DNA of 64,000 bases from a virus (taxonomy: Duplodnaviria > Caudoviricetes): IMG/VR virus record IMGVR_UViG_3300031555_004294, positions 64,001 through 128,000 of that record. One strand, written 5' to 3'. A program made the position numbers and the translations under genes. Each line of letters opens with the position of its first letter. Within the stretch, counting starts at the first letter, position 1. Positions 2,898-46,109 of this stretch are shown here, piece after piece. Under the pieces are notes generated by a model, which was not told where the DNA came from, did no database searches, and saw only the letters and a program-made list of their open reading frames with translations.

Positions 2898-3802
2898 TTA
2901 AGACTCCCAGATTTCTTTCATCTTACGCTTCATCTCAATGATGAGCTTATTTGTGTATAGCATCGAATAACTATCTGTAGTCATACGTGATACTATAGAC
3001 ATGGGTGAGTAGATTGCTAAAATATTCTCATCAGGATATCTTTCAGAGAAAGGCTCTTCGCCTTTAGGTAATACGTCACTAACAATTGTCTTAACAGCAG
3101 TACCATAAACAACCTTATCGCCTGTCTTCAATCTGTCTCTATGTTTTACATAGAATTCGATAATGATACCTTCAAAGTCAATACCCTTAATCTTCTCGTC
3201 TTTGATCTGATCAACTCTTGGGAAAATTGTAGATTTGTTATTGGTATTCTCTACTATCTTCTTTCTAGTATTAACTTCTTTAGCATAGCTATCGATTAGC
3301 TTTTGAATGGACTCAGAACAAATTTCTTTAGGTACATTGTAGTAAACCTTAATGTCGATTATCTCACCAGAATACTTAGCTTTGATTGAGTCTTTACCCA
3401 TATCTTCTACAAACTCAGCAAAATCATCACCCATGCTATCAAGAATTCTATTTGCATCAGCATCTTCAAAAGTATGCTCGAAGGAAATTAAACTTTCACT
3501 AGTTTTAACATGTTGATGTTTTTTAACCATTTGTAGAATGTTTGTATTAGGTGCTAGCTTCACAGTAGTTGCCATAGTTACATAAGACGACATATTTTCC
3601 GAAACCTCATTTGTAATAACAGATGAGTCCTCTAATGTATAGTCACCCTGTGCTATAGCTACTTTTGCTAGTAAACCTTGAGAGAATGTAACTTTATCAG
3701 TTTTATTACCTAAGAAGAAATCACTATTCTTTGCTAGAATGTCATTCTTCTTAAATTTTTGACCTTCTTCGAAAAGTAGGTCTTTTTTGTTGGAAATGTA
3801 AA
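2898..3802 (-). CDS. multisubunit RNA polymerase beta subunit, exon 2
   Basis: The frame is open upstream of the called ATG (3593) to 3802: (F)YISNKKD...GDYTLEDS (beta GYNFEDS motif), then LKTGDKV..KTIVS and YSPMSIVSRM (beta GDK..KGVVS and NPLGVPSRM motifs). Confidence 0.9.
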
Positions 3803-3954
3803 CATTAATATTTGCATAGAGACATTAATTCTATGACTGCTAGGCTTTTAAACCTAGATTAGACTATATCTTCTTGTACTTTCCTATTATACAATCATTT
3901 GACTGCAATATAGTCGTTGAACTTATCTTAAAAAATGTAATTTTGAAAAATTTG

Positions 3955-3966
3955 AATATATATTCT
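3955..3966 (+). promoter_or_regulatory. putative phage early promoter motif driving the intron cargo operon
   Basis: AATATATATTCT; the same motif precedes other non-structural units (36046 +, 44483 -, 49633 -, 55739 -). Confidence 0.6.
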
Positions 3967-4137
3967 AAATGTAGATAAAAGGTGCTACGAATTAGATAGT
4001 AATTCTATCCTTTAACAGAATTGGCAAATGCAGATTTGAACTCTGTGTAAAGTCCCTGTTATAGCAGTAGTTAAATGGAATTTGAGAAACAGCCTTTAAA
4101 AATTTTTATACTTTTACTAAAAGGAGTTAACTACAAA

Positions 4138-5019
4138 ATGGAAAAAACTATCTACAACGGAATGGAATTTAATTACTATCAGATCGCTGAAATCCTGCTT
4201 GGTAATATGGAAGGTATTGATACATCTAACTACACTGATCCTAAAATTTCTTATCAAGAAATGCAAAAAATTAGATTGCGACTGGTTGAAGATAAGAAAA
4301 TTAAAGATAGTTGGTATGAAAATTTTGGTTTAAAACAGATTAACGGAAAATGGATGTCTGTTAGAAATATTAAACCTTGTCCTATTTCAGAAGGAAATTG
4401 CGATAAAGGAATTCAAATTCTGTTAGGTCTTAAAAAAGGGTTAGACGTATCTATTTACGCAAAACCTGAGTTTAGCGGTTTACAGATGCAGGAAATTAGA
4501 TTAGGTCTTGAAAAAGGGTTAGACGTATCTATTTACGCAAAACCTGAATATAGTCACCATCAGATGGACAAAATTCTATTTGGTCTTGAAAGAGGGTTAG
4601 ATGTGTCTATTTACGCAAAACCTGAGTTTGACAGTTGCCAAATGAATCAAATCATATGTTTTCTTGTAAGAGGATTTGACATAAATAAATATCTTGATGC
4701 AGGAATTACTAGTTCAGATATGTTATATGAAGCTGGACGTGGTCTTAATGAAGGTATAGACTTATTCGATTATGCTAAGCAGTTAAATGATTCAACTCAG
4801 CTTTATGAGATTTTAATGGGTATTCGAAAAGGAATAGATGTATCTGTATATGCTAAACCTGAGTTTAGCACCGATCAGATGTGTCAAATCAGAATAGGCC
4901 TTGAAAGGGGATTAGACGTATCTGCATATGCAAAACCTGAACTTAAAGCTAGTGTGATGAAACAGATCAGATTCTGTCTTCAAAAAGGACTAGATATGAC
5001 CGTACATCTTAAAACTTAA
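4138..5019 (+). CDS. tandem 26-aa repeat protein (intron cargo gene 1)
   Basis: Repeats of KGLDVSIYAKPEF..QM.EIRLGLE with 78-nt DNA periodicity; AAGGAG RBS before ATG 4138. Confidence 0.8.
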   Translation: MEKTIYNGMEFNYYQIAEILLGNMEGIDTSNYTDPKISYQEMQKIRLRLVEDKKIKDSWYENFGLKQINGKWMSVRNIKPCPISEGNCDKGIQILLGLKKGLDVSIYAKPEFSGLQMQEIRLGLEKGLDVSIYAKPEYSHHQMDKILFGLERGLDVSIYAKPEFDSCQMNQIICFLVRGFDINKYLDAGITSSDMLYEAGRGLNEGIDLFDYAKQLNDSTQLYEILMGIRKGIDVSVYAKPEFSTDQMCQIRIGLERGLDVSAYAKPELKASVMKQIRFCLQKGLDMTVHLKT

Positions 5020-5050
5020 TTTTACTTGAACAAAAGGAGAACTAATAAAA

Positions 5051-5482
5051 ATGAATGTAACAACTTCAATCATTAACGAACACGGAAACCAACTCAAATT
5101 CACATCTATTCCTCGAAGATACACATCAGGAAATACAGAATATTGGAAGGAATATGATAAGAACGGTAATCTTATCTATGAAAGATTTTCCAATGACGTT
5201 GTAAGGACTCATCTCTATGATGCACAGGGTAAGTTTATCCTTACATACGATCCTTCAGAAATGGGAGCTATAGTAGCTATCCGTCTTTTCTATGATGAGT
5301 ATCGTAGTGTAATGGCAGAACTTGCTTTTGCATATGGAAGTACTCATACTATCGAATGGACTGATATAGCTCAGAGAAGAGCATTCCAGATCGGTATCAA
5401 TGGATATACTTTCATCTTTGATGAGAGAGATGTAGCTAAAGAAAAAACCTTCCAAGATTTTGTAAAAACAAAGGAGAACTAA
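5051..5482 (+). CDS. hypothetical protein, paralog of 5713-6150 (intron cargo)
   Basis: AAGGAG RBS; shares WxEYDxNGNLIxERFS and IGINxYTFIFDERD with 5713-6150. Confidence 0.8.
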   Translation: MNVTTSIINEHGNQLKFTSIPRRYTSGNTEYWKEYDKNGNLIYERFSNDVVRTHLYDAQGKFILTYDPSEMGAIVAIRLFYDEYRSVMAELAFAYGSTHTIEWTDIAQRRAFQIGINGYTFIFDERDVAKEKTFQDFVKTKEN

Positions 5483-5486
5483 CAAA

Positions 5487-5681
5487 ATGAAACTTCGTGA
5501 TGTACTCAATGTTATTAGTGGTGGCACTAATATCAGAATCTCTGTCAACTGCAATACTATCTTTTCTGGTCGAATGGCCGATGTAAAGGTAACTGATTGG
5601 ACCAATACTGTCGGTCCTTATCTGGATAATGAAGTCTACAGACTCAATACTTTCAATGGTTACATAACTATCGCTTGCTAA
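5487..5681 (+). CDS. small hypothetical protein (intron cargo)
   Basis: AAGGAG RBS, tight operon packing. Confidence 0.7.
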   Translation: MKLRDVLNVISGGTNIRISVNCNTIFSGRMADVKVTDWTNTVGPYLDNEVYRLNTFNGYITIAC

Positions 5682-5712
5682 AAATCACACAAGCAAAGGA
5701 GAATTAAACAAA

Positions 5713-6150
5713 ATGCTTGAATCTAAAACTATCATCGAAACTGAAAATGGCAATCGTCTTGAGTTTACGAATTTCACTCCTGACCAAATTAAATCCTATG
5801 GTAAGATCTGGAGGGAATATGATACCAATGGTAATCTTATTCATGAAAGATTTTCTACTGGAGTTATGAAAAACTATCTTTATGATGAGGATAATAAACT
5901 CATCGAAGAATATGATCCTATGGTAAAAGGAGCCATCAATGAAATTCGCATTTTCTATGACGAAGGTCATAAAATCAAGGCAGAACTTACTTTTGCCTTT
6001 GGTGGTACTACAATCATCGATTGGACTGATGTAACTCAAAGAGGACTCTATGAAATTGGTATCAACGCATATACTTTTATCTTTGATGAAAGAGATGCCG
6101 TTAGAGAAAGATTTTTCCAAGATTTTATAGTAACAAAGGAGACAAAATAA
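5713..6150 (+). CDS. hypothetical protein, paralog of 5051-5482 (intron cargo)
   Basis: AAGGAG RBS; similar to 5051-5482 along its length. Confidence 0.8.
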   Translation: MLESKTIIETENGNRLEFTNFTPDQIKSYGKIWREYDTNGNLIHERFSTGVMKNYLYDEDNKLIEEYDPMVKGAINEIRIFYDEGHKIKAELTFAFGGTTIIDWTDVTQRGLYEIGINAYTFIFDERDAVRERFFQDFIVTKETK

Positions 6151-6151
6151 A

Positions 6152-6595
6152 ATGTCATCTACTAATGCAGAATTCGAAATTGGAGAATTTGTAATAACAA
6201 CAGAAAAAATCCAAAATCACCATGGTTCTCTTGAAAAAGACATGGTTGTAGAAATAGTCGGTATAAACAAATCAAATCATACATACGATGTCTGTTTTGA
6301 TAGTGACGCTGGAAAGATTCTTGGAGTTCTTCGTGAAGTTAGTCATACAAGTCTCAAGAGATCTCCTATTCTTAACAGTTCTTATAGATTCACAGAATGT
6401 ACTAGAACTGCAGTAGAAAAAATAGAGCAAGCTATTTCCGTTATTTACGATCAAGATGCAAATGAAGAATGTATTAATGATCTTAAAAATGTCATTGAAC
6501 TTCTTTTTAAGGCTAGACACAATGTTCGTTTTACATTAACACCTGAGATGATCAAGAAATATGAAACACTCAACAAAGGAGAAATAACAAAATGA
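6152..6595 (+). CDS. hypothetical protein (intron cargo)
   Basis: RBS; C-terminal helix pair resembles 6592-6825. Confidence 0.7.
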   Translation: MSSTNAEFEIGEFVITTEKIQNHHGSLEKDMVVEIVGINKSNHTYDVCFDSDAGKILGVLREVSHTSLKRSPILNSSYRFTECTRTAVEKIEQAISVIYDQDANEECINDLKNVIELLFKARHNVRFTLTPEMIKKYETLNKGEITK

Positions 6596-6825
6596 AAATC
6601 AAAACAACAAATATCAATCAAGACAGCAATAAAATTGAAATCGATAACAACACCCAAAAATACATGGGTCATATCACATCTGCTATTGACAAGGCAGAAC
6701 AAGCTCTTTCGAGTATAACTTATACAAGTCATTCAGATGTAAACGAAGAGCCTATCAAGCTTATCAATAAAGCCATCGAACTTCTTGAAAAAGCTCAGGA
6801 TAGTACCATCTACAAACCTGTATAA
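6592..6825 (+). CDS. small hypothetical protein (intron cargo)
   Basis: ATGA overlap with the upstream gene, AAGGAG RBS. Confidence 0.7.
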   Translation: MKIKTTNINQDSNKIEIDNNTQKYMGHITSAIDKAEQALSSITYTSHSDVNEEPIKLINKAIELLEKAQDSTIYKPV

Positions 6826-6842
6826 AGGAGATACCACAACAT

Positions 6843-7061
6843 ATGGAAACTTTTATAATTTGCTTTAAACTTGACAATGCTTATAGGATTTTAGATCAAG
6901 TTGCCATTGTCTATGCAAGAAATCAAGACCATGCAATAAGCCTTCTTAATGCAATGTATGAGAAGTGTCAGTATGAATCAATAAAGTCCATTTACAGTGT
7001 TAGCAAATTAAGTGAAGATGGTAATCCTACTATTTTCACATATACCCCAGCTTTATATTAA
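6843..7061 (+). CDS. small hypothetical protein (intron cargo)
   Basis: AAGGAG RBS. Confidence 0.7.
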   Translation: METFIICFKLDNAYRILDQVAIVYARNQDHAISLLNAMYEKCQYESIKSIYSVSKLSEDGNPTIFTYTPALY

Positions 7062-7072
7062 GGAGAACGACT

Positions 7073-7813
7073 ATGGTTACAAAATACAATGTCATTAATT
7101 TCTTTGAAAAAAGAAAAGGTGACCCAACTGTTCCTCATACAATAGATGAGAAACATGAAAACATCATCTACAAAGATACAGGTAAAGTCCTTGCTACAAT
7201 CGATGAGTACATGGCTGCTATGAAAAAAGTACTTCATTGTGACTTTGAACTCATCTATGATGAACATCCTTCCTGTTTCTCAGTCATCCGTTGTAAGGAA
7301 TGTGGAACTGTAATCTTTGAACGTTATGATGAAGATTATGATCCAAATCTTTGCTGTCCTACTTGTGGGGGCTATAAAACTTACTTTGATTTCTGGACGA
7401 AGGAAGAAATTGATAGTGATGAGGAAAAACAAAAAGCTATCAAAAACTACGAAGAAATGCAACGTGAGTTGGATGAGTCCTATGCAAGACGACAGAAAAG
7501 AGGAGGTCTTTATGATTGGGAGATTTGGAAAAAGAGAATTGAGTTCAAGAAAACCCTTTGGAATATCTCTCTTGAATGTGATAATCTTTTCTATAGCAAA
7601 CCAAAACTTAAAGGTCTAAAACTCATTATCAAAATGAGTAAAAGAGATCCTGAATATGACGACATGTTTGTCTGGAAGAAGTCTACAAGAATTCCTCTAT
7701 CTTGGTATGCTTTCTACATACATTGTATTCTCCCATACTCTAAAACATGTCCAGAAGAATTACGCAAGTACCATTTCTGGCAGAAGAAACCTAAAGATCA
7801 GGAGGAAGGATAA
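7073..7813 (+). CDS. zinc-ribbon protein (intron cargo)
   Basis: CKECG and CPTCG pairs; AAGGAG RBS. Confidence 0.7.
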   Translation: MVTKYNVINFFEKRKGDPTVPHTIDEKHENIIYKDTGKVLATIDEYMAAMKKVLHCDFELIYDEHPSCFSVIRCKECGTVIFERYDEDYDPNLCCPTCGGYKTYFDFWTKEEIDSDEEKQKAIKNYEEMQRELDESYARRQKRGGLYDWEIWKKRIEFKKTLWNISLECDNLFYSKPKLKGLKLIIKMSKRDPEYDDMFVWKKSTRIPLSWYAFYIHCILPYSKTCPEELRKYHFWQKKPKDQEEG

Positions 7814-7816
7814 TTT

Positions 7817-8275
7817 ATGCACAACATCACTACAAGATACAAAGAGATTAAAGTTTGGTCTGCAAGTAAATTTAATCTCATCATCGCTATCGTTTTCATC
7901 GTTCTTACTGTACTGCTTGAAGCAGGAATTTTACACTGTATATTTACAGATAAAATTGGAAGTGCTGTTTTATTACAGTTTATGGTATCACCAATAACAA
8001 TTGTAGTTGCATCATGTGGAATTGGTACTTATAAACGAAGAAAAGAATTTACATTATACTTCAGCCAAATTGATGACGTTATTGATATCTCAAGACTTAA
8101 ATCTGAATATCATCTTTGCATGATTGATGGGTATGGTGTATTATTTATCAAAAACGATGATATACCTTCATATTCTGATTGGACTACTTTTGGTAGCTAT
8201 AATTCTACTTATAGAATTGAAGAAAAGTTTTTTAAAAATAGCACAATTTCTTTCATTACTAAAAAGGAGGACTAG
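7817..8275 (+). CDS. membrane protein with two TM segments (intron cargo)
   Basis: Two N-terminal hydrophobic stretches; GGAGG upstream. Confidence 0.7.
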   Translation: MHNITTRYKEIKVWSASKFNLIIAIVFIVLTVLLEAGILHCIFTDKIGSAVLLQFMVSPITIVVASCGIGTYKRRKEFTLYFSQIDDVIDISRLKSEYHLCMIDGYGVLFIKNDDIPSYSDWTTFGSYNSTYRIEEKFFKNSTISFITKKED

Positions 8276-8279
8276 AATA

Positions 8280-8450
8280 ATGAAAACCTATAGTGTAAGT
8301 ATACTTCATAAAACTGGTAGGGTTGTAAGACCTTATATCTTCAACGTTGAAGCATCAAATGAAAAAGATGCAGAGAATGAAGTCATGAGTAAAGTTAAAG
8401 CTCTTAATCTTAAAGGATCTTTAAGCGTTGATTTCGTTGAAGAAATTTAA
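8280..8450 (+). CDS. small hypothetical protein, 56 aa (intron cargo)
   Basis: AAGGAGG RBS before ATG 8280 (MKTYSV...), in frame with track ORF 8124-8450. Confidence 0.65.
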   Translation: MKTYSVSILHKTGRVVRPYIFNVEASNEKDAENEVMSKVKALNLKGSLSVDFVEEI

Positions 8451-8473
8451 CAAACAGAAAGGAAAATATCGCC

Positions 8474-8734
8474 ATGATGACTAAAACCCAATTTGCAAAA
8501 AAGATCGTTGAAGGATTTTGCAAAGATGTTGACTACAGAACTATTACTGATTGGTCTCCTTATATCTGTATGAGTAGTAGACTCGCAGTTGCATTAGAAT
8601 TCCTTGGATTGATTCCGAAGGATTCTTATACAGAATCTAGAGGAGGAATTGAAATGGTTTACTATGACAAGGAGAATAATGAGTCTGCAATTCTTTCAAC
8701 CAGAGAACTTCTTTCGTTGCTTCCTGATGAATAA
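8474..8734 (+). CDS. hypothetical protein (intron cargo)
   Basis: AAGGA RBS, 86 aa. Confidence 0.7.
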   Translation: MMTKTQFAKKIVEGFCKDVDYRTITDWSPYICMSSRLAVALEFLGLIPKDSYTESRGGIEMVYYDKENNESAILSTRELLSLLPDE

Positions 8735-8748
8735 TTAAAGTTCAAGAA

Positions 8749-8780
8749 AGTGTTAAGGGATCACTTTAAATATCCCTTCT
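8749..8780 (+). repeat. hairpin direct repeat copy 1 (copy 2 at 9159-9190)
   Basis: AGTGTTAAGGGATCACTTTAAATATCCCTTCT matches copy 2 at 30 of 32 positions. Confidence 0.85.
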
Positions 8781-8806
8781 CTAATTTATAAAACTAGAAA
8801 GGAAAT

Positions 8807-9145
8807 ATGTTAACCATGAAACGTGAATATATTGACAACGAAGAAATCATGAGTAACGATACTATTGAAATGGAGCATATCGTCACTGCAAAAAGGATTG
8901 AAAATAATATTGTGCTTTTTCAAAACGTAATTGCTAGTTTTTCAGGTGTAAAACTTACCGATGGTAAAGGCCCAAATGATCCAGATGAAGATGCATTTTG
9001 TGAGTTCAAATACAAAGATGATAAATTTTACTATAGAGATAGTCTCACAAAAGAGTTTGAAGAAGTTACATATGCTTTTTGGACGAATACTCTCTTATAC
9101 TATGTTTCTGAAGGACATAGTATTCATTATTTCAATGAAGACTAA
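8807..9145 (+). CDS. hypothetical protein (last intron cargo gene)
   Basis: AAGGA RBS; flanked by the duplicated hairpin. Confidence 0.7.
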   Translation: MLTMKREYIDNEEIMSNDTIEMEHIVTAKRIENNIVLFQNVIASFSGVKLTDGKGPNDPDEDAFCEFKYKDDKFYYRDSLTKEFEEVTYAFWTNTLLYYVSEGHSIHYFNED

Positions 9146-9158
9146 TTCATCTACATAC

Positions 9159-9196
9159 AGTGTTAAGGGATCACTATAAATGTCCCTTCTTTTTTT
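9159..9196 (+). terminator. terminator of the cargo operon, just inside the P6 arm
   Basis: AAGGGA...TCCCTT stem followed by CTTTTTTT. Confidence 0.7.
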
Positions 9197-9286
9197 ATAA
9201 TTTTTTAAGATAAGCTGCTGATTATACAAAATTTTGTATGTTCCAGCAATTAAGGAAGTTTATCAAGGTGATCAATAATAAATTTC

Positions 9287-12200
9287 AACCACCATTAGAG
9301 TTTTTACTAATACGTTCAGATATATCAATTACATCTGTCGTACCATCTTTGTAACGAATTATTACTAACTCGTTCTTTGTATCTACCTTTTCTACTACAC
9401 CATCTTGTTCTGCAATAGATACAAAGTCAGAGGATAAAGTATAAGGTAGAGTTCTTTCTATACCAGAGCCATATAAAGGTCTGGATTGTTTTTCAGTGGG
9501 AACTGAGTGTTTCGCTTGTTGCGTCTGCATTCCAATTCTCGGAGGATCCGCATGAAGTGAGGTATAGCAAGACAATAGTTCACCAGCTGTTAGCATATTA
9601 GTTGCTGCTAAGTCTTGAACGTTAGTATTTGTATCGATGAAACCAAAATTGTTAGTTACTTTAGGATTATAACTGAGCTGACGAGTTACGCCAACCTTAT
9701 TACTATCAGGTGAACTTATTCCAAGTAGACCAACCATACTTTGGTCGTAAGATCTCATTTGAGGTGTAAAGGCATCATCTAAATTAGTACCTCCGATACC
9801 CTTATAAGTTGTTGATCCAAGTCTTTCAATTTCAAGCACAGGACTAAGTGTCGAATATGCTTCAACAATAGGACTTTCAACCAACTTCTTAATTACAGCA
9901 TCAGGACTGTGTAATGAAATCTTTCTATCAGTATAACCTGACTTATAAGCATCTTTATATTCCCTAACAGCTTCAGATAACACATCATACAATGTTGCAT
10001 TAACAGTTTCTATACTACGTAGACGATAGTTTTTCATATCATTTACAGGTACATAACTGTTATCAGACAATAAAGTATTACAATGTAACAAAACTCCTAA
10101 AAGGTCATTAGGAAGTTTCATGTAATCTAAAATTTCTTTAGTCTTAGGGTCTAAAAGGAAGTTCAAAGTATTTTGGAAACCTTTAGCTAAGTTTCTCTTA
10201 CCATAACGTAAATCAAAATACTCGATGTAAATACCTTTTTCATTCATAGCTGCAAATTCAGTTTCCTTCAAGAAAGGAATGTCATTCAATCCATTCATGA
10301 GTAAACTGTTTCTTAATGGAGTAGACTTATAGTTCAGATAACCATCAGCAAATCTTATAGATGACCATAATGAAACATCGTCATCATCTAATTGCTTCTT
10401 TTTTTCTGAGAACTCGTATTCTATTCCATATCTAAGCATTACATTTTCTAAACCAAAATAGAAACCTGTAAGAATAATTAACGGAATCATAGTTCCAGTT
10501 ACTTTAGTTCTTACATACATGAACTTAGAAGAAACTTTTTGATTTAGCAGCTTCTTATAAAGTTCTGTCTCTTCATGTTGTTTAAAAATACTTAGGACTA
10601 GATTGAAAATTGAAGTATAAGTTGTACTAGCTTGAAGTTTCAAAGCTTCATTCAAGTTAGAATTGTAGGAATGAATTAAACCATCTTCTACGTTGATAGT
10701 ATAAATGATACCATTTACTTTGTTAACTCCTAGCAAGTACTCTCCTTCTGGAATTGAATCATCAATACTTCTATCTAAGAATTCTGAAATCTCAGCATTT
10801 ACTTTATCTCGGTTAAAACATAACATAACGTTTCTGTTATAGTCAAACGAGAGCATATATCTAGAAACTTCGTCATACTCCATTAGAGTTGAATATTTAG
10901 AGTTAACTTGGACGCAATTTCCTAACTTTACAGAAATCTTTCCTTTATGACTAGGTGCATCTTTCAAAATAAAATTCTTCAATTTGTCAGAGTTAGATGA
11001 AAGTTTGGAATTAAATCTCCAGAAAAACATCTTACCCTTGTCAGTAGAAATTGAAACTTCGTTTGGCTTATTTTTAGTAATTGGTAGCTTCATTAACTGT
11101 TTACCAATACTAACTTTGTGATCATTAAGATACATGAACGAATTATCATAAATGATAGGCATCTCGATGTTAACGATATGTCTATTACCCCAACCATCTT
11201 CGTAATTGACCTTAATGAGTTCTTTCTTGTTAATTTCATCTGAGATATCTTCTCTTGAGAGGTCAGTTATATAAATAGGACATTCTGGATCATTATTAAA
11301 CGCAGAAAGGACTTTAATCAAGTCTTTATCTTTTTGATTCTTAACGTAGTTTCTATCTAATTCTTTAAGAGTACAAGTTTTTACTTCCTCATTCAGTGTG
11401 TTAATGTTTATCGTTTCTGTATTAATAGAATGAACTTCATGGTCATGCAAAATGTTATCAATATTGAGTGGCTTGTTACTCACTTTAATATTGACATCAA
11501 CTTTATTTTGCTTTTCCTTAAGTCGTTCTAACTTATTTTCAGGAACTGTAGTCTGATTATTTTTCAAATTGACGAGATAATTCAAAAATCTCTCATCATT
11601 ATTAAGTTCATCTTCTAGTTCATCAACATTGTTAAAGGAAGTTGCTTTATTATCAATGGTTTTTTCAATTCTATCTAGAAGTTCTAAATCATCCGTGTTT
11701 AAAGCAATTTTGTCTGTCAGTTTTAGTCCTTTTACAATCTTATTTTTAATGGGTTTTGCTATATCAGCTTTAACCTGTTTTGATTGTAAATTCTTAATTT
11801 TTTCTGAAGATTGTTTATTTGTTACAGATAAAACTTTACTACTGGATTGAACTATTTGATTATCAGAATTCTGAATTTCTGCTTCTTCTTCCTTATCCAA
11901 CTCTATTCCATTAGAAATTTTATACAAGATGTTTGAAAGTTTCTTGAATTTAGCTAATGAAAATTTTGGATCAGAAAAGTCTACTAAAAACATTCTCGTA
12001 TTGTTTTTATCAGAAAATACGAACTTGTATTTTTTAAAGAACTCGTAATCAAAAGTTCCCTGTTTAAGCATGAAATACAAGATATTTTCAAAACTAAATA
12101 TACGTCCAGTAGTAATTAGCTCTTTAGGAATTACTTGAATGAAAACTTCAGAATAACTATTAGTTTTACCTAAAATTTCTTTTAAAAATGGTATGAATGG

Positions 12201-12617
12201 TTTTAATTTACTTTCAAAACTTTTATAAGATTTATACGTCTCTTCAAATACTTTATAATATCCATAGGTATCAAAATAAGTATTGTATCCTCCATATAAA
12301 TCTAATTTGATTCGCTTAAAAGTAATATTTGGACTTTTAACATCCATTTCTTTGTACTTTACATCTTGTAAAGTATCTACTTTTCTACCCCTACAAGAAG
12401 CTAATTTTTCTGTTTTATAAGGATAGAAGTAACCTTTTACAAATTGTTTGATAAACAGATTGGAGTTAATGATGTCATAAACATCTGATGAAGATGTATT
12501 CAACGAAAATATTAATCGACCTTTTTGTTTATTAGTATTTTCATCATTACTTAGATAGAGGTTATAATTTTTATAAAGATACAAATTTTTATCTAAATCG
12601 TAGTAATTAACCCTCAT
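9287..12617 (-). CDS. multisubunit RNA polymerase beta subunit, exon 1 (probably virion RNAP; spliced product 1411 aa)
   Basis: Beta motifs SPVLEIERLGSTTYKGIGG, SSPDSNKVGVTRQLS and HADPPRIGMQTQQAKHSVP (cf. HDDANRALMGSNMQRQAVP). The ORF stops at the intron boundary. Virion assignment is inferred from the late-type motif. Confidence 0.9.
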
Positions 12618-12648
12618 ATAAGCTTTTCTCCTCCTTTCACTTTTTAGT

Positions 12649-12660
12649 TAGTATTTTGTT
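12649..12660 (-). promoter_or_regulatory. putative late promoter AACA-N6-TA
   Basis: AACA-AAATAC-TA just upstream of the RNAP beta RBS; matches the AR9 late consensus. Confidence 0.6.
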
Positions 12661-12727
12661 TGTATAACATAATCTATATCAGATCATATAATTATTTGGT
12701 AGTAATTTTTATTTTTTATAAATTTTT

Positions 12728-12761
12728 AATTCTATTAGATTTTTAAAAATCTAATAGAATT
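12728..12761. repeat. perfect 34-bp palindrome in an AT-rich divergent intergenic region
   Basis: AATTCTATTAGATTTTT/AAAAATCTAATAGAATT. Confidence 0.9.
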
Positions 12762-13117
12762 TTTTATTTAATTTATATTAAAAATTTTATAATTTATAAA
12801 AACCCCCTCTAAATCTCCCCCATAAGGAAAAATTAGGAAATTTTGTAGCTGTAATTTTATGTTACGATGAACTAGATTTTTAAATTTTTAAAAATACGAG
12901 TAATAATTCATTACTAAAACTAGGTATATACTAAATTAGGAAAAACAACATTTTATCGTTTAAAATTTAATCCAATTTTTAAGTATATATTTTTGTTTTA
13001 GAAATAGTATTATGTGAGGTATGAAATAGTATCTTCTTCCTATTTCTTATTTTCTCATAGTATTATTTTGTACAAAATAATACTCAAAAAAAATTATTAA
13101 AAGGAGGACTAACAAAC

Positions 13118-14764: not shown

Positions 14765-14841
14765 TGGGGTGTAGCCAAGTGGCCTAAGGCACGAGACTTT
14801 GACTCTCGCATTCGAATGTTCAAATCATTCCACCCCAGCCA
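14765..14841 (+). tRNA. tRNA-Gln(TTG)
   Basis: Cloverleaf, anticodon loop CT-TTG-AC, encoded CCA. Confidence 0.9.
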
Positions 14842-15055
14842 ACGGTATATTTGTTAGAAGCATCGACAAGGATATGAGTTGTTGGAGTACTATGAAGAGT
14901 AAATGCGAGATTATCGCAGTTAGCCACCTAAGCAATGCGTGCATGTAATGGATATTAGTTTCAAATATTGAGTTCTCCGCCAATTCCAGAGTATGACTGA
15001 CCTTCAACAGAAAACTGTAAAACAAAGAGGGAAATAAGACATATGAAAGAGGTTT

Positions 15056-15610
15056 ATGAAAATGAGCAAATCAATGCTATTTAATTGGGCATTCAAGCGA
15101 ATTTTAGGGTTAAGAGATGTTGGTGTATTCTTTAAGGTAATGAAGGAGCGCAAAGAAATTAAAACACAAGTTAATCTTAAAGGAGCCATAAGTTCTCCTA
15201 ATCATCTTAGCGAAATCATTGTTGGTCATGATGAACAGATTGATAAATGGATTGAGCCTATGGCTGCTGGAACTGAAAGTTGCCCTTATTGGGATTGTAC
15301 AAGACTGTTCTACGGCAAGGAGGCTAACTTTGACTGGGGCGAAAAGAATATGGAATATTGGCTTGGTATGAGACAAACAGTTCTAGCTCCTATCATCCCT
15401 ATTCCGATTTGTGCTTATGAGGAAGTCTATATTCTTGGTGAATCGGATAAGGCTTTTAGAGATTGCATGAAGAAGTATGGTAAAGCTCGTGCTTTCCATG
15501 ATCACGCTGAAGAGTTTGGTGCAAAGAAGATAATTGATAAAACAAATGTCTACTTTATGCAATGTGACATTTCTTATATGAAAGACCCTGTGTGGTCTAC
15601 TTGTGAGTGA
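15056..15610 (+). CDS. hypothetical protein inside the tRNA cluster
   Basis: 184 aa, GAGG RBS. Confidence 0.65.
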   Translation: MKMSKSMLFNWAFKRILGLRDVGVFFKVMKERKEIKTQVNLKGAISSPNHLSEIIVGHDEQIDKWIEPMAAGTESCPYWDCTRLFYGKEANFDWGEKNMEYWLGMRQTVLAPIIPIPICAYEEVYILGESDKAFRDCMKKYGKARAFHDHAEEFGAKKIIDKTNVYFMQCDISYMKDPVWSTCE

Positions 15611-15746
15611 TGTAGTCGCTATACAAATGACTATCTTTTTGTGAAATTATATTTCACACAAGTGAGCCTCTGTTGTGAACAGACTCCAAGGCTACGGCGA
15701 TTGGCCTCTCGAAAGAGTTAAAAATCGCCATTTATTTCAAATAATT

Positions 15747-15837
15747 GGAGAGATACCCAAGAGGTCGAAGGGGGCGGTCTACTAAACCGCTAGGGCATGT
15801 AAATGTTGCAAGAGTTCAAATCTCTTTCTCTCCGCCA
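15747..15837 (+). tRNA. tRNA-Ser(ACT)
   Basis: Long variable arm, G discriminator, stem GCGGT/ACCGC with loop CT-ACT-AA, CCA end. Confidence 0.85.
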
Positions 15838-15888
15838 AATATTTATTAAAGTTCTCAGTAGTTTTAACCTGTTGGGAACTTTATCTAT

Positions 15889-15963
15889 GCTGGTGTGGCT
15901 CAATGGCAGAGCAGCTGATTTGTAATCAGCAGGTTGATGGTTCGAATCCGTTCACCAGCTCCA
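15889..15963 (+). tRNA. tRNA-Thr(TGT)
   Basis: Cloverleaf, loop TT-TGT-AA, CCA end. Confidence 0.93.
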
Positions 15964-15966
15964 TTT

Positions 15967-16041
15967 CGGGATGTAGCGTATTGGTTACGCACTAGTTTTG
16001 GGAACTAGATCAAGTAGGTTCGATTCCTATCATTCCGACCA
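15967..16041 (+). tRNA. tRNA-Pro(TGG)
   Basis: CGGGATG acceptor, loop TT-TGG-GA, CCA end. Confidence 0.88.
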
Positions 16042-16129
16042 GAAATATTGATTAAAGTCTTGATATTTTAAATTACTAGACTTTAAATTTTTAAAAATCT
16101 GAGTAATAAATAATTATTCAGATTTTTAT

Positions 16130-16205
16130 TCCTCCTTAGCTCAGTCGGCAGAGCACCTGACTGTTAATCAGGGTGTCGCTGGTTCAAGCCCAGCAGGGGG
16201 AGCCA
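16130..16205 (+). tRNA. tRNA-Asn(GTT)
   Basis: Cloverleaf, loop CT-GTT-AA, GCCA end. Confidence 0.93.
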
Positions 16206-16247
16206 TATTAAAGTCTTGATAAATTAAATCATCAAGACTTTACATTT

Positions 16248-16323
16248 GCAGTAGTAACTCAATTGGTAGAGTGCTAGCCTTCCAAGCTGGATGTCGCGAG
16301 TTCGAGCCTCGTCTACTGCTCCA
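16248..16323 (+). tRNA. tRNA-Gly(TCC)
   Basis: Cloverleaf, loop CT-TCC-AA, TCCA end. Confidence 0.93.
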
Positions 16324-16467
16324 ACAAAAAATTTAAATCAAGTTTTAAATACATATTTTAAACTTGAAAAAAAAGGAAACGTATTAAAGTAAATTTTAAA
16401 TACATATTCTTATTCTGTAAAAAGAAAATGAATTACATGACAAATGTTAACACTTTCCTTTACATAT

Positions 16468-16554
16468 GGGGGTATGGCGGAACAGGTAGACGCAAGGGAC
16501 TTAAAATCCCTCGGTAGAGATACTGTGAGGATTCGAATTCCTCTACCCCCACCA
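16468..16554 (+). tRNA. tRNA-Leu(TAA)
   Basis: Long variable arm, loop CT-TAA-AA, ACCA end. Confidence 0.93.
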
Positions 16555-16607
16555 CTCGTTTAGGTAATTCTATCCTATAATAGAATTACCTAAACATTTT
16601 TATTTAT

Positions 16608-16684
16608 GGGACATTAGCTCAGTTGGTCAGAGCATTCGGCTCATAACCGAACGGTCCAAGGTTCGAGACCTTGATGTCCCACCA
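16608..16684 (+). tRNA. tRNA-CAT (probably Ile2, possibly elongator Met)
   Basis: Loop CT-CAT-AA; CGG/CCG anticodon stem resembles Firmicute tRNA-Ile2. Confidence 0.85.
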
Positions 16685-16689
16685 TATAT

Positions 16690-16765
16690 GATCCATTAGC
16701 TCAGATGGCAGAGCACATGACTTTTAATCATGGTGTCCGGAGTTCGACTCTCCGATGGATCACCA
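16690..16765 (+). tRNA. tRNA-Lys(TTT)
   Basis: Cloverleaf, loop CT-TTT-AA, ACCA end. Confidence 0.93.
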
Positions 16766-43248: not shown

Positions 43249-43358
43249 TTTTTAGAGTATAACCTCATAAACGGTTATACTCTAACTTTCTTAACCTTTA
43301 AAACACCCTTCCAACATTCCATTATAAAATAACAAAGGAAAGGAGGAAATAACATTTT

Positions 43359-43982
43359 ATGACTGTAAACAATAGTTACATCATAGATACTCAAACCACC
43401 AATAAATCATTCAAACGAATGTATAAGATACTCAAAACTATTGGAGTTAAGAATAATAAATTCTTCTTAAAACTTTATGATACTAGTTTGCAAGGAGTAA
43501 ATCCTAGAGATGAAGCCAATTTAACTAAAGAACAGAAGATGCGTATACTAGCAGAATGTAAACGTAATCCTTGGTATTTCTTTAGAGAAGTGGTCATTCT
43601 GAATGTTGCTGGTGGTAAAAAAAGATTTGAACTACATCGTGGTAACTTAGCTATTCTATGGTGTATGTTAAACAACTACAACTCAATTACTTTATTGCCT
43701 CGTCAGCATGGTAAAACGGTTTCTACAGTATGTGGTTTTGTTTGGTTATATACCTTTGGTACAGAAAACTCAAACATACTCTTTATGAATAAAGACTTTG
43801 GTGGTTCAAAGAACAACCTAAAGCTATTCAAAGATATCTATGACAATTTACCTTCCTATCTTAAAAATAGAAACAAAAATGACAAAGACAATGTAGAATT
43901 CATTGTCAATGCAACTACTGGTAACACTATTCGTGCAATTTCATCGGCTATTAGTGCAGCTGAAGCAGATAAGCGAGGACGT
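43359..43982 (+). CDS. terL: terminase large subunit, exon 1
   Basis: ECKRNPWYFFREV and Walker A LPRQHGKT; ends DKRGR at the intron boundary; AACA-N6-TA at 43313-43324. Confidence 0.9.
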
Positions 43983-44669
43983 AAATTTAACTGCGTTTCA
44001 ATAGCATAAACTATTGTCAAAAATTTCTTAATTGCTGGGAACATACAAAAAATTTGTACTATCAGCAGTCATTTATAAAAAAAAAAAGAAAGCCTTATAG
44101 AGACTTTCTTTTTTGTATGGAAATACTTTATTCTGTAACTTCCTCAACAGTTGTTTCTTCTGTAAGAGTATCAGGTTTAATTTCTACCAACTCTTCTTCA
44201 GAAGTAACTTCCTCAGTTACAGTTCCTTCATCGTTATTTTCAGTTTCAGCATTTGCTACATCAGATTGGATTTCCTCCAAGATGTTAGCAACCTGTTCCT
44301 TGAGCTTTGCCTTCTTCTTCTTTCTGATGTGGCAAACAGTACCTACTGCTCCTGCAACCAAAGCAACAGCTCCTACTCCAATAGCGATTACACCAATAGT
44401 CTTTCCGTTCATTTTTTAGTTCTCCTTTTTAAATAAAAATTTTTGTTAGAATAATTTATGTATTTCCTTCTAACTCACAATAAGAATATATATTTGAAAA
44501 GTTGAACTTTACGATTTTTATAAATGATTCAACGACTATATATTACATTCAGAATTTGAATGGAAATTGAAATGATCCTTAACACTAGGATTTTGATATA
44601 GTCTCAACTTCTATGGAAACATAGAGAATATTTTACATGAACTAATGACTCATGTATCAAGATTTTTTG
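43983..44669 (+). mobile_element. group I intron (687 nt) in terminase, with an antisense gene in the P6 loop
   Basis: Exon end GGACGU pairs with IGS GCGUUU. P AAUUGCUGGGAA (44030-44041), Q AUCAGCAG (44061-44068), R UUCAACGACUAUA (44528-44540), S GAUAUAGUCU (44595-44604), P9 CUAUG-GAAA-CAUAG, terminal G 44669. Join restores RGR-GLTSPLIYYDE. Confidence 0.93.
44128..44412 (-). CDS. small single-pass membrane protein (terminase intron cargo)
   Basis: AAGGAG RBS, N-terminal TM, basic patch, acidic tail; early-type motif at 44483-44494 and hairpin at about 44082-44114. Confidence 0.8.
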   Translation of the reverse strand: MNGKTIGVIAIGVGAVALVAGAVGTVCHIRKKKKAKLKEQVANILEEIQSDVANAETENNDEGTVTEEVTSEEELVEIKPDTLTEETTVEEVTE

Positions 44670-46109
44670 GGTTTAACCTCACCTCTTATCTACTACGATG
44701 AATTTGCTTTCTTAAAGTTTAACAAAATCCTTTGGCAAGCAGCTGCACCTGCACAGGGTCAGGCAAGAGAAGAAGCTCGTCGAAATAAATCATTCTACTC
44801 AGCAACTATAACTACTACACCAAACAATATAGATAACAATCCTGAATCAGAAGGAACTTGGTGTAAGTCAGAAATGGTTGATAAAGCATGTCGCTTTGAT
44901 GAAGCCATGTATGACTGGACTAGAGAAGAAGTTCTTGAATGTCTGGCTAAGAAATCTGATAACGACTTTTTATACATTGAGTTTTCTTACAAACAACTTG
45001 GTCGTGATGAAGTATGGTATAAAGAAAACTGTCGTGCATTAAATAACGACCTTCTTAAAATCAAACGTGAAATTCTTCTTGAATGGACAAAAGCATCTGA
45101 CGTATCAGTATTCTCTGAGGAACAGTTAGTTGCAATAGAAAAGCATTTGAAAGAACCAGTATCTAAATTAGTCATTGACAGATATTGGTCTATTGATCTT
45201 TATAGAACAGACTTTGATTATCTTAAACCTTGGGTAATTTCTTGTGACGTTGGTACTGGCCTTTCGCAAGACGCTTCTGCTATAACTATCTTCCATCCTA
45301 TAACATTTGAAATCATAGGTGAATTTAGAGAGAATAAAATAGATACAGAAGACTACAAGCATTTACTTGAGAAGTTGGTTGGCTTCTGGTTCCGTAATTC
45401 ATTGCTTACCATAGAGAACAACTCTATTGGTATAACGATCATACAGTACTTAATGCGAACAGTTGTAGCTAAGAACTTGTACTATGAATACAAGGATCGA
45501 AAAGGTACTAAGATAGAGAAATCTAAGACTGAGTTAACACATGTTAGTAAAAAAGAAAAGGTACAAGTTTATGGTATTTCAACTACAAGTAATTCCTCTG
45601 GTAGTGGTAGCCGTGACTTAATGTTAGAAATTTTGAACGATACTATAAACACACAACCTGAATTATTAGCAACACCCAACCTATTCTCGGATATTAAGGG
45701 ATTAGAGAGAGATAATAAAGGAAAGATCGGCCATGGTCTTGGTCTCCACGACGACTCTCTCTTTTCTTATTTAGTTGGACGTTACACTCTAGCTTATGGT
45801 ACTAACTTAGCTCGTTTCCAAATGCCAGTAGATGGTAAAGAACCTGCAGATAGAAAGGCTAGTATGGCACGTATGTCACATAATTTACAAGAAGCCAATA
45901 GACTATCAGTTAGACCTGGTGCTACTAAAGCATTCGGTTATAATGGATTAGCAAATCAAGAAATTGAACAAGCTAGCTACTTAGAATTAAGAAAACAAAT
46001 AGATGCTGGTGGTAGAATTGGTGTTTATACTAGTATAAGTCAAATTGAGGAATTAGATAAGAAAAGTAAATACCGACTATTAAGTTCTGACATTTGGGAT
46101 AACAAATAA
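44670..46109 (+). CDS. terL: terminase large subunit, exon 2 (spliced product 687 aa)
   Basis: Walker B IYYDEFAF, motif III TTTP, nuclease motifs CDVGTG..QDAS, IENNSIG and HDDSL. Confidence 0.9.
   Translation, partial: GLTSPLIYYDEFAFLKFNKILWQAAAPAQGQAREEARRNKSFYSATITTTPNNIDNNPESEGTWCKSEMVDKACRFDEAMYDWTREEVLECLAKKSDNDFLYIEFSYKQLGRDEVWYKENCRALNNDLLKIKREILLEWTKASDVSVFSEEQLVAIEKHLKEPVSKLVIDRYWSIDLYRTDFDYLKPWVISCDVGTGLSQDASAITIFHPITFEIIGEFRENKIDTEDYKHLLEKLVGFWFRNSLLTIENNSIGITIIQYLMRTVVAKNLYYEYKDRKGTKIEKSKTELTHVSKKEKVQVYGISTTSNSSGSGSRDLMLEILNDTINTQPELLATPNLFSDIKGLERDNKGKIGHGLGLHDDSLFSYLVGRYTLAYGTNLARFQMPVDGKEPADRKASMARMSHNLQEANRLSVRPGATKAFGYNGLANQEIEQASYLELRKQIDAGGRIGVYTSISQIEELDKKSKYRLLSSDIWDNK

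What the first reader, a model, noticed from the sequence alone, without database searches (positions are those of the whole stretch)
3955..12660. Possible time-sharing of DNA: late-promoter host genes, early-promoter antisense cargo
Seen: both intron host genes have AACA-N6-TA upstream (12649-12660 and 43313-43324), while both cargo units have AATATATATTCT about 20 nt inside the 3' P6 arm (3955-3966 and 44483-44494). Known: AR9-like phages use a virion RNAP for early genes and a non-virion RNAP for late genes. Inference: temporal separation avoids polymerase collision and double-stranded RNA; alternatively early antisense RNA may suppress premature splicing or expression of the late genes.
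Basis: inference. Interest (0 to 1): 0.75.

Follow-up and report, generated by a model that had tools for sequence, protein, structure and literature searches.

The report
Early antisense genes inside late-gene introns
Two self-splicing introns in late genes of an uncultured gut phage related to AR9 each carry, on the opposite strand, a complete early-type transcription unit, so the same DNA appears to serve as early genes on one strand and as a spliced-out intron on the other.

Summary
The early-type motif is far from chance. The 13-mer AAATATATATTMT occurs 6 times in the 157-kb contig against 0.05 expected, always intergenic and pointing at a gene. It matches the mapped AR9 early promoter (AAATATATATTAT-N6-G).

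AACA-N6-TA is not enriched overall (72 against 85 expected). It is enriched 20-59 nt upstream of start codons in sense (27 against about 5), and both host genes fit that pattern.

The host genes are the virion RNA polymerase beta gene (ortholog of late AR9 g189) and the terminase large subunit gene. Each is split by a group I intron whose removal restores conserved protein sequence.

Each P6 loop holds a self-contained antisense unit of promoter, ORFs and terminator. The predicted transcript does not reach the ribozyme core or the exons.

New here: the early promoter belongs to the conserved intron backbone, next to the 3' P6 arm. It recurs in at least eight introns at four insertion sites, with interchangeable cargo.

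Temporal separation is a reasonable inference with sense-strand precedents in AR9 and T4, but no RNA data exist. This is a new variant of a known kind.

The parts
12649..12660 (-). AR9-type late promoter motif AACA-N6-TA of the vRNAP beta gene. Predicted +1 is A12649, giving a 32-nt leader.
9287..12617 (-). Exon 1 of the virion-RNAP beta-like gene. It ends in the U of a U.G pair in P1: exon 9293->9287 pairs with the guide sequence 9273->9267.
3803..9286 (-). Group I intron 1, 5484 nt. P6 arms 9214->9200 and 3936->3922 form 15 perfect pairs and close a 5263-nt loop. The R and S elements lie at about 3921 and 3870. The terminal G is 3803.
3954..3973 (+). AR9-type early promoter, antisense to the intron: GAATATATATTCT-N6-A. 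It lies 17 nt inside the 3' P6 arm.
4138..9145 (+). Cargo: 12 tightly packed ORFs with ribosome-binding sites. None has a Pfam or PHROG function and none is a recognisable endonuclease.
9165..9197 (+). Intrinsic terminator of the cargo unit: a hairpin plus a T-run on the + strand only. It abuts the 5' P6 arm.
2898..3802 (-). Exon 2 of the beta gene. The first 69 codons have no start codon, yet are conserved against relative G001 (23 synonymous and 12 non-synonymous codon differences).
43313..43324 (+). Late promoter motif AACA-N6-TA of the terminase large subunit gene, giving a 35-nt leader. Conserved in relative G001.
43359..43982 (+). Terminase large subunit, exon 1.
43983..44669 (+). Group I intron 2, 687 nt, a paralog of intron 1. 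P6 arms 44070-44081 and 44515-44526 form 12 perfect pairs.
44476..44495 (-). Early promoter, antisense to the intron: AAATATATATTCT-N6-G, an exact consensus match. It lies 19 nt inside the 3' P6 arm.
44128..44412 (-). Cargo: a single 94-aa ORF with a ribosome-binding site and an N-terminal hydrophobic segment read by eye as a transmembrane helix. No family match.
44075..44114 (.). Terminator hairpin of the cargo unit. A T11 run follows on the - strand and a T6 run on the + (host-gene) strand.
44670..46109 (+). Terminase large subunit, exon 2. The junction ADKRGR|GLTSPL matches an uninterrupted homolog.

Best explanation
The virion-RNAP beta gene and the terminase large subunit gene are late genes. 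They are probably read by the non-virion phage RNA polymerase from AACA-N6-TA promoters.

Each gene is interrupted by a cis-splicing group I intron of one family, of IA type by inspection. The P6 loop of each intron contains a complete transcription unit on the opposite strand. The unit consists of:
- an AR9-type early promoter (AAATATATATTMT-N6-R) 17-19 nt (13-mer edge; about 20 nt) inside the 3' P6 arm;
- ORFs with ribosome-binding sites;
- an intrinsic terminator that abuts the 5' P6 arm.

Early in infection the injected virion RNA polymerase would transcribe only this loop-internal unit. Later, the other polymerase would read through the same DNA in the opposite direction as intron RNA. 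The P6 arms would then pair across the loop and the intron would be spliced out.

The early promoter is part of the conserved intron backbone, whereas the cargo behind it is interchangeable. The intron therefore acts as a portable early-expression slot inside essential late genes.

Antisense orientation lets the unit carry its own terminator and translated ORFs without truncating or unfolding the host pre-mRNA. Temporal separation follows from the promoter classes and is probably partial rather than absolute.

Shown here: motifs, positions, statistics, exon junctions, RNA pairings, and conservation in relatives. Inferred: which polymerase uses which motif, the timing, splicing in vivo, and the reason for the antisense orientation.
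For: Promoter identity:
- The AR9 early consensus AAATATATATTAT-N6-G and late consensus AACA-N6-TA/G were mapped by dRNA-seq and primer extension (PMC5312081).
- Here the 13-mer occurs 6 times against 0.05 expected. All copies are intergenic and oriented toward genes. They precede a DNA polymerase operon, a helicase operon and an HNH endonuclease gene.
- The late motif is enriched 27 against 5-6 in the 20-59 nt upstream of starts. It precedes a portal-like virion structural gene, the terminase gene and the vRNAP beta gene.
- No late motif precedes any cargo ORF, and no exact AACA-N6-TA lies on the host strand inside intron 1.

Host genes are late-class:
- The beta gene's AR9 match is g189, the virion RNAP beta, annotated as six joined pieces and a late gene.

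Introns are real:
- The spliced junctions NGG-F-YISNKKD and ADKRGR-GLTSPL match uninterrupted homologs.
- P1 has a U.G pair at the splice site.
- R/S elements and P7 are invariant, and P9 shows compensatory changes.
- By inspection, P3 and P6 differ in sequence but stay paired across eight family members.
- Two compensatory double changes separate the orthologous introns, and 23 synonymous against 12 non-synonymous changes fall in exon-2 codons that can be translated only after splicing.
- No host-strand terminator lies in the cargo of intron 1.

Recurrence of the module:
- Relative G001 (85% amino-acid identity in exon 2) has two beta introns with antisense promoter, cargo and terminator. Its cargo is unrelated to the window's: only 1 of 12 ORFs has a homolog.
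- The same layout occurs in L018, the L025 group (8 contigs with identical intron-cargo sequence), L056 and L069.
- An alignment of six promoter-to-P6 regions shows the promoter is backbone sequence.

Two beta-type genes are present in the complete relative.
Against: - No expression data exist for this uncultured phage.
- The intron-1 promoter deviates from consensus (G at position 1, A at +1) and sits 184 nt (13-mer start 3954 to the ATG at 4138; about 165 nt of leader from the predicted +1) before the first ORF. In AR9 a single mismatch, at another position, silenced a predicted early promoter.
- G001 has only AACC-N7-TA upstream of its beta gene.
- No homolog of AR9 gp226, the subunit that reads the late promoter, was found by tblastn. 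The contig is only 61% complete.
- By inspection, intron 1 and its G001 ortholog lack the P8 hairpin present in the other family members (alignment).
- The intron-2 terminator hairpin is followed by T6 in the host-gene direction, and intrinsic terminators are efficient in AR9.
- In AR9, 21 of 80 early transcripts still rise at late times, so the two RNAs may coexist.
Confidence: 0.6

Rival explanations
1. The antisense early unit is regulatory. Early transcription across the intron, or the resulting antisense RNA, delays or dampens expression or splicing of the late host gene, through transcriptional interference or double-stranded RNA.
For: The head-on arrangement is conserved in at least eight introns. 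Some cargos are about 250-290 nt with no convincing ORF, as expected of a regulatory RNA.
Against: The predicted transcripts are confined to the P6 loop by a terminator next to the 5' arm. They do not cover the core, the splice sites or the exons. Late genes already depend on a polymerase that is absent early. Cargo content is not conserved.
Confidence: 0.12
2. The intron-1 promoter copy is a decayed relic. The 12-gene cargo is silent or is expressed some other way. Only intron 2 and other exact-consensus copies are active.
For: There is a mismatch at position 1 and A at +1, with an unusually long distance to the first ORF. AR9 vRNAP is sensitive to single mismatches.
Against: The orthologous G001 site also has G at position 1, with a consensus G at +1. 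AR9 leaders range from 26 to 491 nt. The cargo ORFs are intact, packed and have ribosome-binding sites, and they end at a proper terminator. No alternative promoter motif lies upstream.
Confidence: 0.15
3. The late transcript does not traverse the 5.3-kb loop. The two intron halves are made separately and joined in trans, or the beta gene is expressed as two polypeptides.
For: The loop is 5263 nt long. Split beta and beta' genes are common in this phage group (PMC5312081, AR9 nvRNAP subunits).
Against: No exact late motif lies on the host strand within the intron, and no start codon precedes the first 69 conserved codons of exon 2. No host-strand terminator lies in the cargo. The 15-bp P6 is kept perfect.
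Confidence: 0.05
4. The motifs are chance AT-rich matches with no promoter function.
For: The genome is 32% G+C. AACA-N6-TA is not enriched overall.
Against: The 13-mer occurs 6 times against 0.05 expected, always intergenic and oriented. The late motif is enriched by position. The early motif is conserved at the same intron position in other phages, and the TerL late motif is conserved in G001.
Confidence: 0.03

Closest known systems
Bacillus phage AR9 g189/g190: early-promoter HNH gene inside an intron of the late virion-RNAP beta gene (PMC5312081; KU878088)
   Same: The host gene is orthologous. The intron family is the same (R element TTCAACGACTA, S element GATATAGTC). The early promoter consensus is the same and also lies in the P6 loop. 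It is an early gene inside a late gene.
   Different: In AR9 the cargo is on the same strand as the host gene. It is a single homing endonuclease with no terminator before the 3' ribozyme half. Here the cargo is antisense, has its own terminator, has no recognisable endonuclease, and runs up to 12 genes.
[quoted passage not shown]
   Same: The intron cargo has a promoter of a different temporal class from the host gene.
   Different: Sense orientation. The timing is reversed (late cargo in early or middle genes). The cargo is always a homing endonuclease. Host RNA polymerase with phage factors does the transcription.
Nuclear rDNA group I introns with antisense homing endonuclease genes, e.g. 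position L2066 (PMC9548176)
   Same: A protein gene sits on the strand opposite to a group I intron.
   Different: Eukaryotic nuclear setting, endonuclease cargo, single gene. No early/late polymerase switch.
Giant mitochondrial group I intron ND5-717 of hexacorals (PMC6545197)
   Same: A multi-kilobase group I intron whose loop holds ordinary, non-endonuclease genes.
   Different: The cargo is on the same strand (from my own knowledge, not checked in the paper). It is an organelle genome. No separate promoter classes are described.

Membership tests
AR9-type early (virion RNAP) promoter | 13-mer AAATATATATTAT | tested here: met
   Intron 2 has AAATATATATTCT, matching the contig's own consensus exactly. 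Intron 1 has GAATATATATTCT, with 1 mismatch.
AR9-type early (virion RNAP) promoter | Start at a G six nt downstream of the 13-mer | tested here: inconclusive
   G is at the right place in intron 2 and in 5 of the 6 exact-consensus copies in the contig. Intron 1 has A followed by G. No 5'-end data exist.
AR9-type early (virion RNAP) promoter | Over-represented, intergenic, and upstream of early-type genes | tested here: met
   6 copies against 0.05 expected. They precede DNA polymerase and helicase operons.
AR9-type early (virion RNAP) promoter | Active without new protein synthesis, transcribed by the injected polymerase | not testable with these tools
   Uncultured phage; no RNA run was listed.
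AR9-type late (non-virion RNAP) promoter | AACA-N6-T followed by A or G at +1, upstream of late genes | tested here: met
   Both host genes carry it, 32 and 35 nt before the ATG. Positional enrichment is 27 against 5-6. The TerL copy is conserved in G001. The beta copy is only approximate in G001.
AR9-type late (non-virion RNAP) promoter | Phage encodes a gp226-like promoter-recognition subunit and has uracil-containing DNA | tested here: inconclusive
   tblastn with AR9 gp226 gave no significant hit. The contig is 61% complete. Base modification cannot be read from sequence.
Group I intron | P1 with a U.G pair at the 5' splice site, a terminal G, and exact restoration of the host reading frame | tested here: met
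Group I intron | Conserved core: P3, P4-P6, P7 and the R/S elements, with covariation | tested here: met
   P7 is invariant and P9 covaries. P3 and P6 covary across family members by inspection. Compensatory changes separate the orthologs.
Group I intron | P8 hairpin | tested here: not met
   In the 3'-half alignment, by inspection, intron 1 and its G001 ortholog have only about 7 nt where the other members have a hairpin. Intron 2 has the hairpin.
Group I intron | Rfam Intron_gpI (RF00028) score above the gathering threshold | tested here: not met
   18.3 bits for the 3' end of intron 1, and no hit for intron 2. The split by cargo lowers the score. The relative L025 gives two half-matches of 27 bits each.
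Mobile intron with homing endonuclease | Endonuclease gene inside the intron | tested here: not met
   No Pfam or PHROG endonuclease family matched the 11 window cargo ORFs scanned (the 56-aa ORF 8280-8450 was not scanned). Sister introns elsewhere do carry HNH-type or other endonuclease-like ORFs.

The most novel reading that the evidence does not exclude
The P6 loop of this intron family is a portable early-expression platform. An intron-borne virion-RNAP promoter and a loop-internal terminator drive interchangeable antisense cargo, ranging from an RNA of about 290 nt with no convincing ORF to a 12-gene operon. The platform sits inside essential late genes, so one stretch of DNA is early mRNA on one strand and spliced-out intron on the other. 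Accessory early genes can then hitch-hike on introns between phages.
Probability: 0.45. Interest if true: 0.8.

Novelty: new variant of a known kind. Interest (0 to 1): 0.65.

Why it matters
Intron cargo in phages has been treated as homing endonucleases on the host-gene strand. Here ordinary early genes, up to a 5-kb operon, sit antisense inside a ribozyme loop, and the promoter travels with the intron.

If confirmed, this would be:
- to my knowledge, an unusually large group I intron for a phage;
- an antisense operon inside a phage group I intron, for which my literature searches found no precedent;
- a new route by which introns carry accessory genes.

It also gives a natural test case for head-on transcription by two different phage RNA polymerases. 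A second question it makes testable is whether a group I ribozyme can fold across a 5.3-kb loop.

Tried and rejected
- Rfam at gathering threshold found only tRNAs. E-value mode gave only a weak 3'-end intron hit and nothing for intron 2.
- megablast against phage records found no match.
- Pfam, PHROGs and the protein atlas gave no function for the cargo proteins tested.
- One cargo protein has only three database relatives. One of these lies in a non-intron array of small genes, L086.
- tblastn with AR9 gp226 gave no hit.
- phrog_3148 and PF00562 found no second beta gene in the 61%-complete contig, only in relative G001.
- Sequencing runs: no RNA holder was listed for the intron region or for the first two cargo genes. 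All holders are DNA contigs from faeces metagenomes.
- Laying DNA contigs gave one low-confidence joint, 3934->9159 in run X1. Divergent contigs also stop matching at 3934. This is compatible with cargo replacement at the P6 arm, but too weak to count.
- Most other collection hits of the pattern AATATATATT...TTCAACGACTA were coincidental. The AT-rich word lay in the 3' end of sense endonuclease ORFs or in P5 loops.
- Sigma-70-like promoters are not enriched (44 against 49).
- The near-palindromic core allows a reverse reading at 3965 (-) with 2 mismatches. I rejected it as a promoter because it lacks the invariant T at position 13 and the G at +1.


Full report
**Observation.** All four motif instances are at the stated coordinates.
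- AACAAAATACTA lies at 12660->12649 on the minus strand. Its last A is 32 nt before the ATG of a 1110-aa ORF.
- AACATTCCATTA lies at 43313-43324, 35 nt before the ATG at 43359.
- AATATATATTCT lies at 3955-3966 (+) and 44494->44483 (-).

**Genome context.** The window is the reverse complement of G000:C1:14162-78161. That is a 156,854-bp virus contig with 32% G+C, rated 61% complete. It was found only in faeces metagenomes. Its RNA polymerase beta protein is 30-38% identical to those of AR9, PBS1 and related large phages of Bacillus, Staphylococcus and Listeria.

**Are the motifs more than chance?** AR9 promoters were mapped experimentally: early AAATATATATTAT-N6-G and late AACA-N6-TA/G (PMC5312081).
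- In this contig the 13-mer AAATATATATTMT occurs 6 times against 0.05 expected from first-order Markov (dinucleotide-frequency-preserving) simulated sequences.
- All six copies are intergenic and point at a start codon 44-83 nt away.
- The units they head include a DNA polymerase operon, a helicase operon and an HNH endonuclease gene.
- The intron-1 copy is a one-mismatch variant (G at position 1) with A rather than G at the predicted start. It sits 184 nt before the first ORF. AR9 leaders range from 26 to 491 nt.
- AACA-N6-TA is not enriched overall (72 against 85 expected).
- AACA-N6-T[AG] is enriched 20-59 nt upstream of predicted starts in sense: 27 hits against about 6 expected and 5 in the antisense control.
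- Both host genes fall in the main mode of 31-36 nt.
- The TerL copy is conserved in the relative G001 as AACATTCAATTA. G001's beta gene has only AACC-N7-TA.

**Host genes and introns.**
- The 1110-aa ORF and the 231-aa ORF at 2898-3593 match consecutive parts of phage RNAP beta profiles. The AR9 match is g189, the virion RNAP beta: a late gene annotated as six joined pieces.
- The exon-2 frame is open up to 3824 with no start codon. Joining 9287 to 3802 gives NGG-F-YISNKKD, which matches GGGFFLAQSKD in the uninterrupted Listeria phage LPJP1 protein.
- The exon end GGUGGUU pairs with GAUCACC in the intron, with U.G at the splice site.
- The second host gene is the terminase large subunit. Joining 43982 to 44670 gives ADKRGR-GLTSPL, which matches an uninterrupted homolog.
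- The two introns are paralogs and share their P, Q, R and S elements.
- A 3'-half alignment of seven family members gives an invariant P7 and a P9 with compensatory changes.
- By inspection, P3 and P6 differ in sequence but stay paired in every member.
- P6 is 15 perfect pairs in intron 1 (9214->9200 with 3936->3922) and 12 in intron 2.
- Against the orthologous intron in G001, the ribozyme halves are 88-91% identical with two compensatory double changes.
- The 69 exon-2 codons that lack a start codon show 23 synonymous against 12 non-synonymous differences. That is selection for a spliced product.
- Caveats: Rfam scores are below threshold. By inspection, intron 1 and its ortholog lack the P8 hairpin that the others have.

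**The antisense units.**
- In intron 1 the loop holds twelve packed ORFs with ribosome-binding sites, from 4138 to 9145.
- A hairpin plus T-run follows at 9165-9197 and is a terminator only on the plus strand.
- In intron 2 the loop holds a 94-aa ORF with a hydrophobic N-terminus (44412->44128). Its hairpin is followed by T11 in the cargo direction and T6 in the host-gene direction.
- The predicted early transcripts are about 3973-9197 and 44476->44075. Both lie wholly inside the P6 loops.
- No cargo ORF scanned has a recognisable function or endonuclease domain.
- No late motif precedes a cargo ORF. No exact late motif and no convincing terminator lie on the host strand inside intron 1.

**Relatives.**
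- G001, a 319.6-kb record rated complete, is 85% identical in exon 2. Its beta gene has two introns, one at the window's site and one about 80 codons upstream.
- Both G001 introns carry an antisense early-type promoter about 20 nt inside the 3' P6 arm, antisense ORFs, and a terminator next to the 5' arm.
- Only one of the window's twelve cargo ORFs has a homolog there.
- L018 has an intron at the window's TerL site, with the same promoter layout and about 250 nt of cargo with no clear ORF.
- Eight IMG/VR contigs that are identical across the intron cargo region (the L025 group) have another TerL intron with a perfect antisense consensus and a unit of about 290 nt.
- Two metagenome contigs, L056 and L069, repeat the layout. 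L056 has a sense ORF as well.
- An alignment of six promoter-to-P6 regions shows that the promoter and its spacing to the arm are conserved backbone sequence, while everything behind the start diverges.
- In contrast, the G001 TerL intron and AR9 g190 carry sense endonuclease ORFs. In AR9 no terminator precedes the 3' half.
- G001 has 11 exact early motifs and at least 14 introns of this family. Only two of those introns carry antisense units. The module is therefore recurrent but in a minority.
- G001 also has a second beta-type gene, consistent with two polymerases.

**Interpretation.**
- Precedents exist for intron cargo with a promoter of another temporal class: AR9 g190 and the T4 intron endonucleases (PMC2988022). 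Both are on the host-gene strand and both are endonucleases.
- What is new is the antisense orientation, the self-contained terminator, the non-endonuclease and multi-gene cargo, and the finding that the promoter is intron-borne.
- I infer that antisense orientation is what allows a terminator and translated ORFs inside an intron without truncating or unfolding the host pre-mRNA.
- Avoiding polymerase collision through promoter class is plausible but probably incomplete, because many AR9 early RNAs persist late.
- No RNA data could be found, so timing and splicing remain untested.

Noticed in passing
L007:13969-15330 (- strand of the locus; about -35330 to -33968 in window coordinates): The major head protein gene runs at its 3' end into a compact group I-like core. 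A terminator-like hairpin follows, then an exact early promoter (AAATATATATTAT-N6-G) and a sense-strand HNH endonuclease gene of 331 aa. This is a third early promoter associated with an intron in this contig. The downstream exon was not identified.
   Followed up: partly
L025:4073-4392 (and the identical region in L020, L022, L027, L028, L032, L033, L038): The P6 loop of a terminase intron holds an antisense unit of about 290 nt. It has a perfect early promoter and a strong terminator, but no convincing ORF and no Rfam match. It may be an early non-coding RNA.
   Followed up: partly
window 3873-3900 (- strand) and L004:9900-9935: By inspection of the 3'-half alignment, intron 1 and its G001 ortholog have about 7 nt where the six other family members have a P8 hairpin. 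Both are nevertheless under structural and coding selection.
   Followed up: partly
window 8755-8790 and 9165-9188; 5051-5482 and 5713-6150; 4138-5019: The terminator hairpin occurs twice, flanking the last cargo gene. Two cargo ORFs are 53% identical paralogs. The first cargo protein is built of about eight 26-aa repeats. This suggests stepwise growth of the cargo.
   Followed up: partly
window 44075-44114: The intron-2 cargo terminator also looks like a terminator in the terminase direction (hairpin followed by T6). It could attenuate the late gene.
   Followed up: no
L007:18996-19686 and L008:2-950: A head maturation protease gene is split by at least two introns of the same family. One is compact. 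The other carries a sense HNH endonuclease gene preceded by a late-type motif.
   Followed up: partly
L056:9300-11700: A beta-gene intron in a metagenome contig has both a sense 327-aa ORF and an antisense 78-aa ORF driven by an exact early promoter, all in one P6 loop.
   Followed up: no
window 12725-12765 and L004:2800-2840: A long perfect palindrome (AATTCTATTAGATTT...AAATCTAATAGAATT) upstream of the beta gene is conserved in the relative G001. It is probably a bidirectional terminator or a regulatory site.
   Followed up: no
window 3934 / 9159: One metagenome contig in run X1 joins 3934 to 9159. Divergent contigs stop matching at 3934, the edge of the 3' P6 arm. This may reflect strain variants with other cargo.
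   Followed up: no
window 14765-16765: A cluster of nine tRNA genes, with one-mismatch early-like motifs at 16398 and 36045.
   Followed up: no
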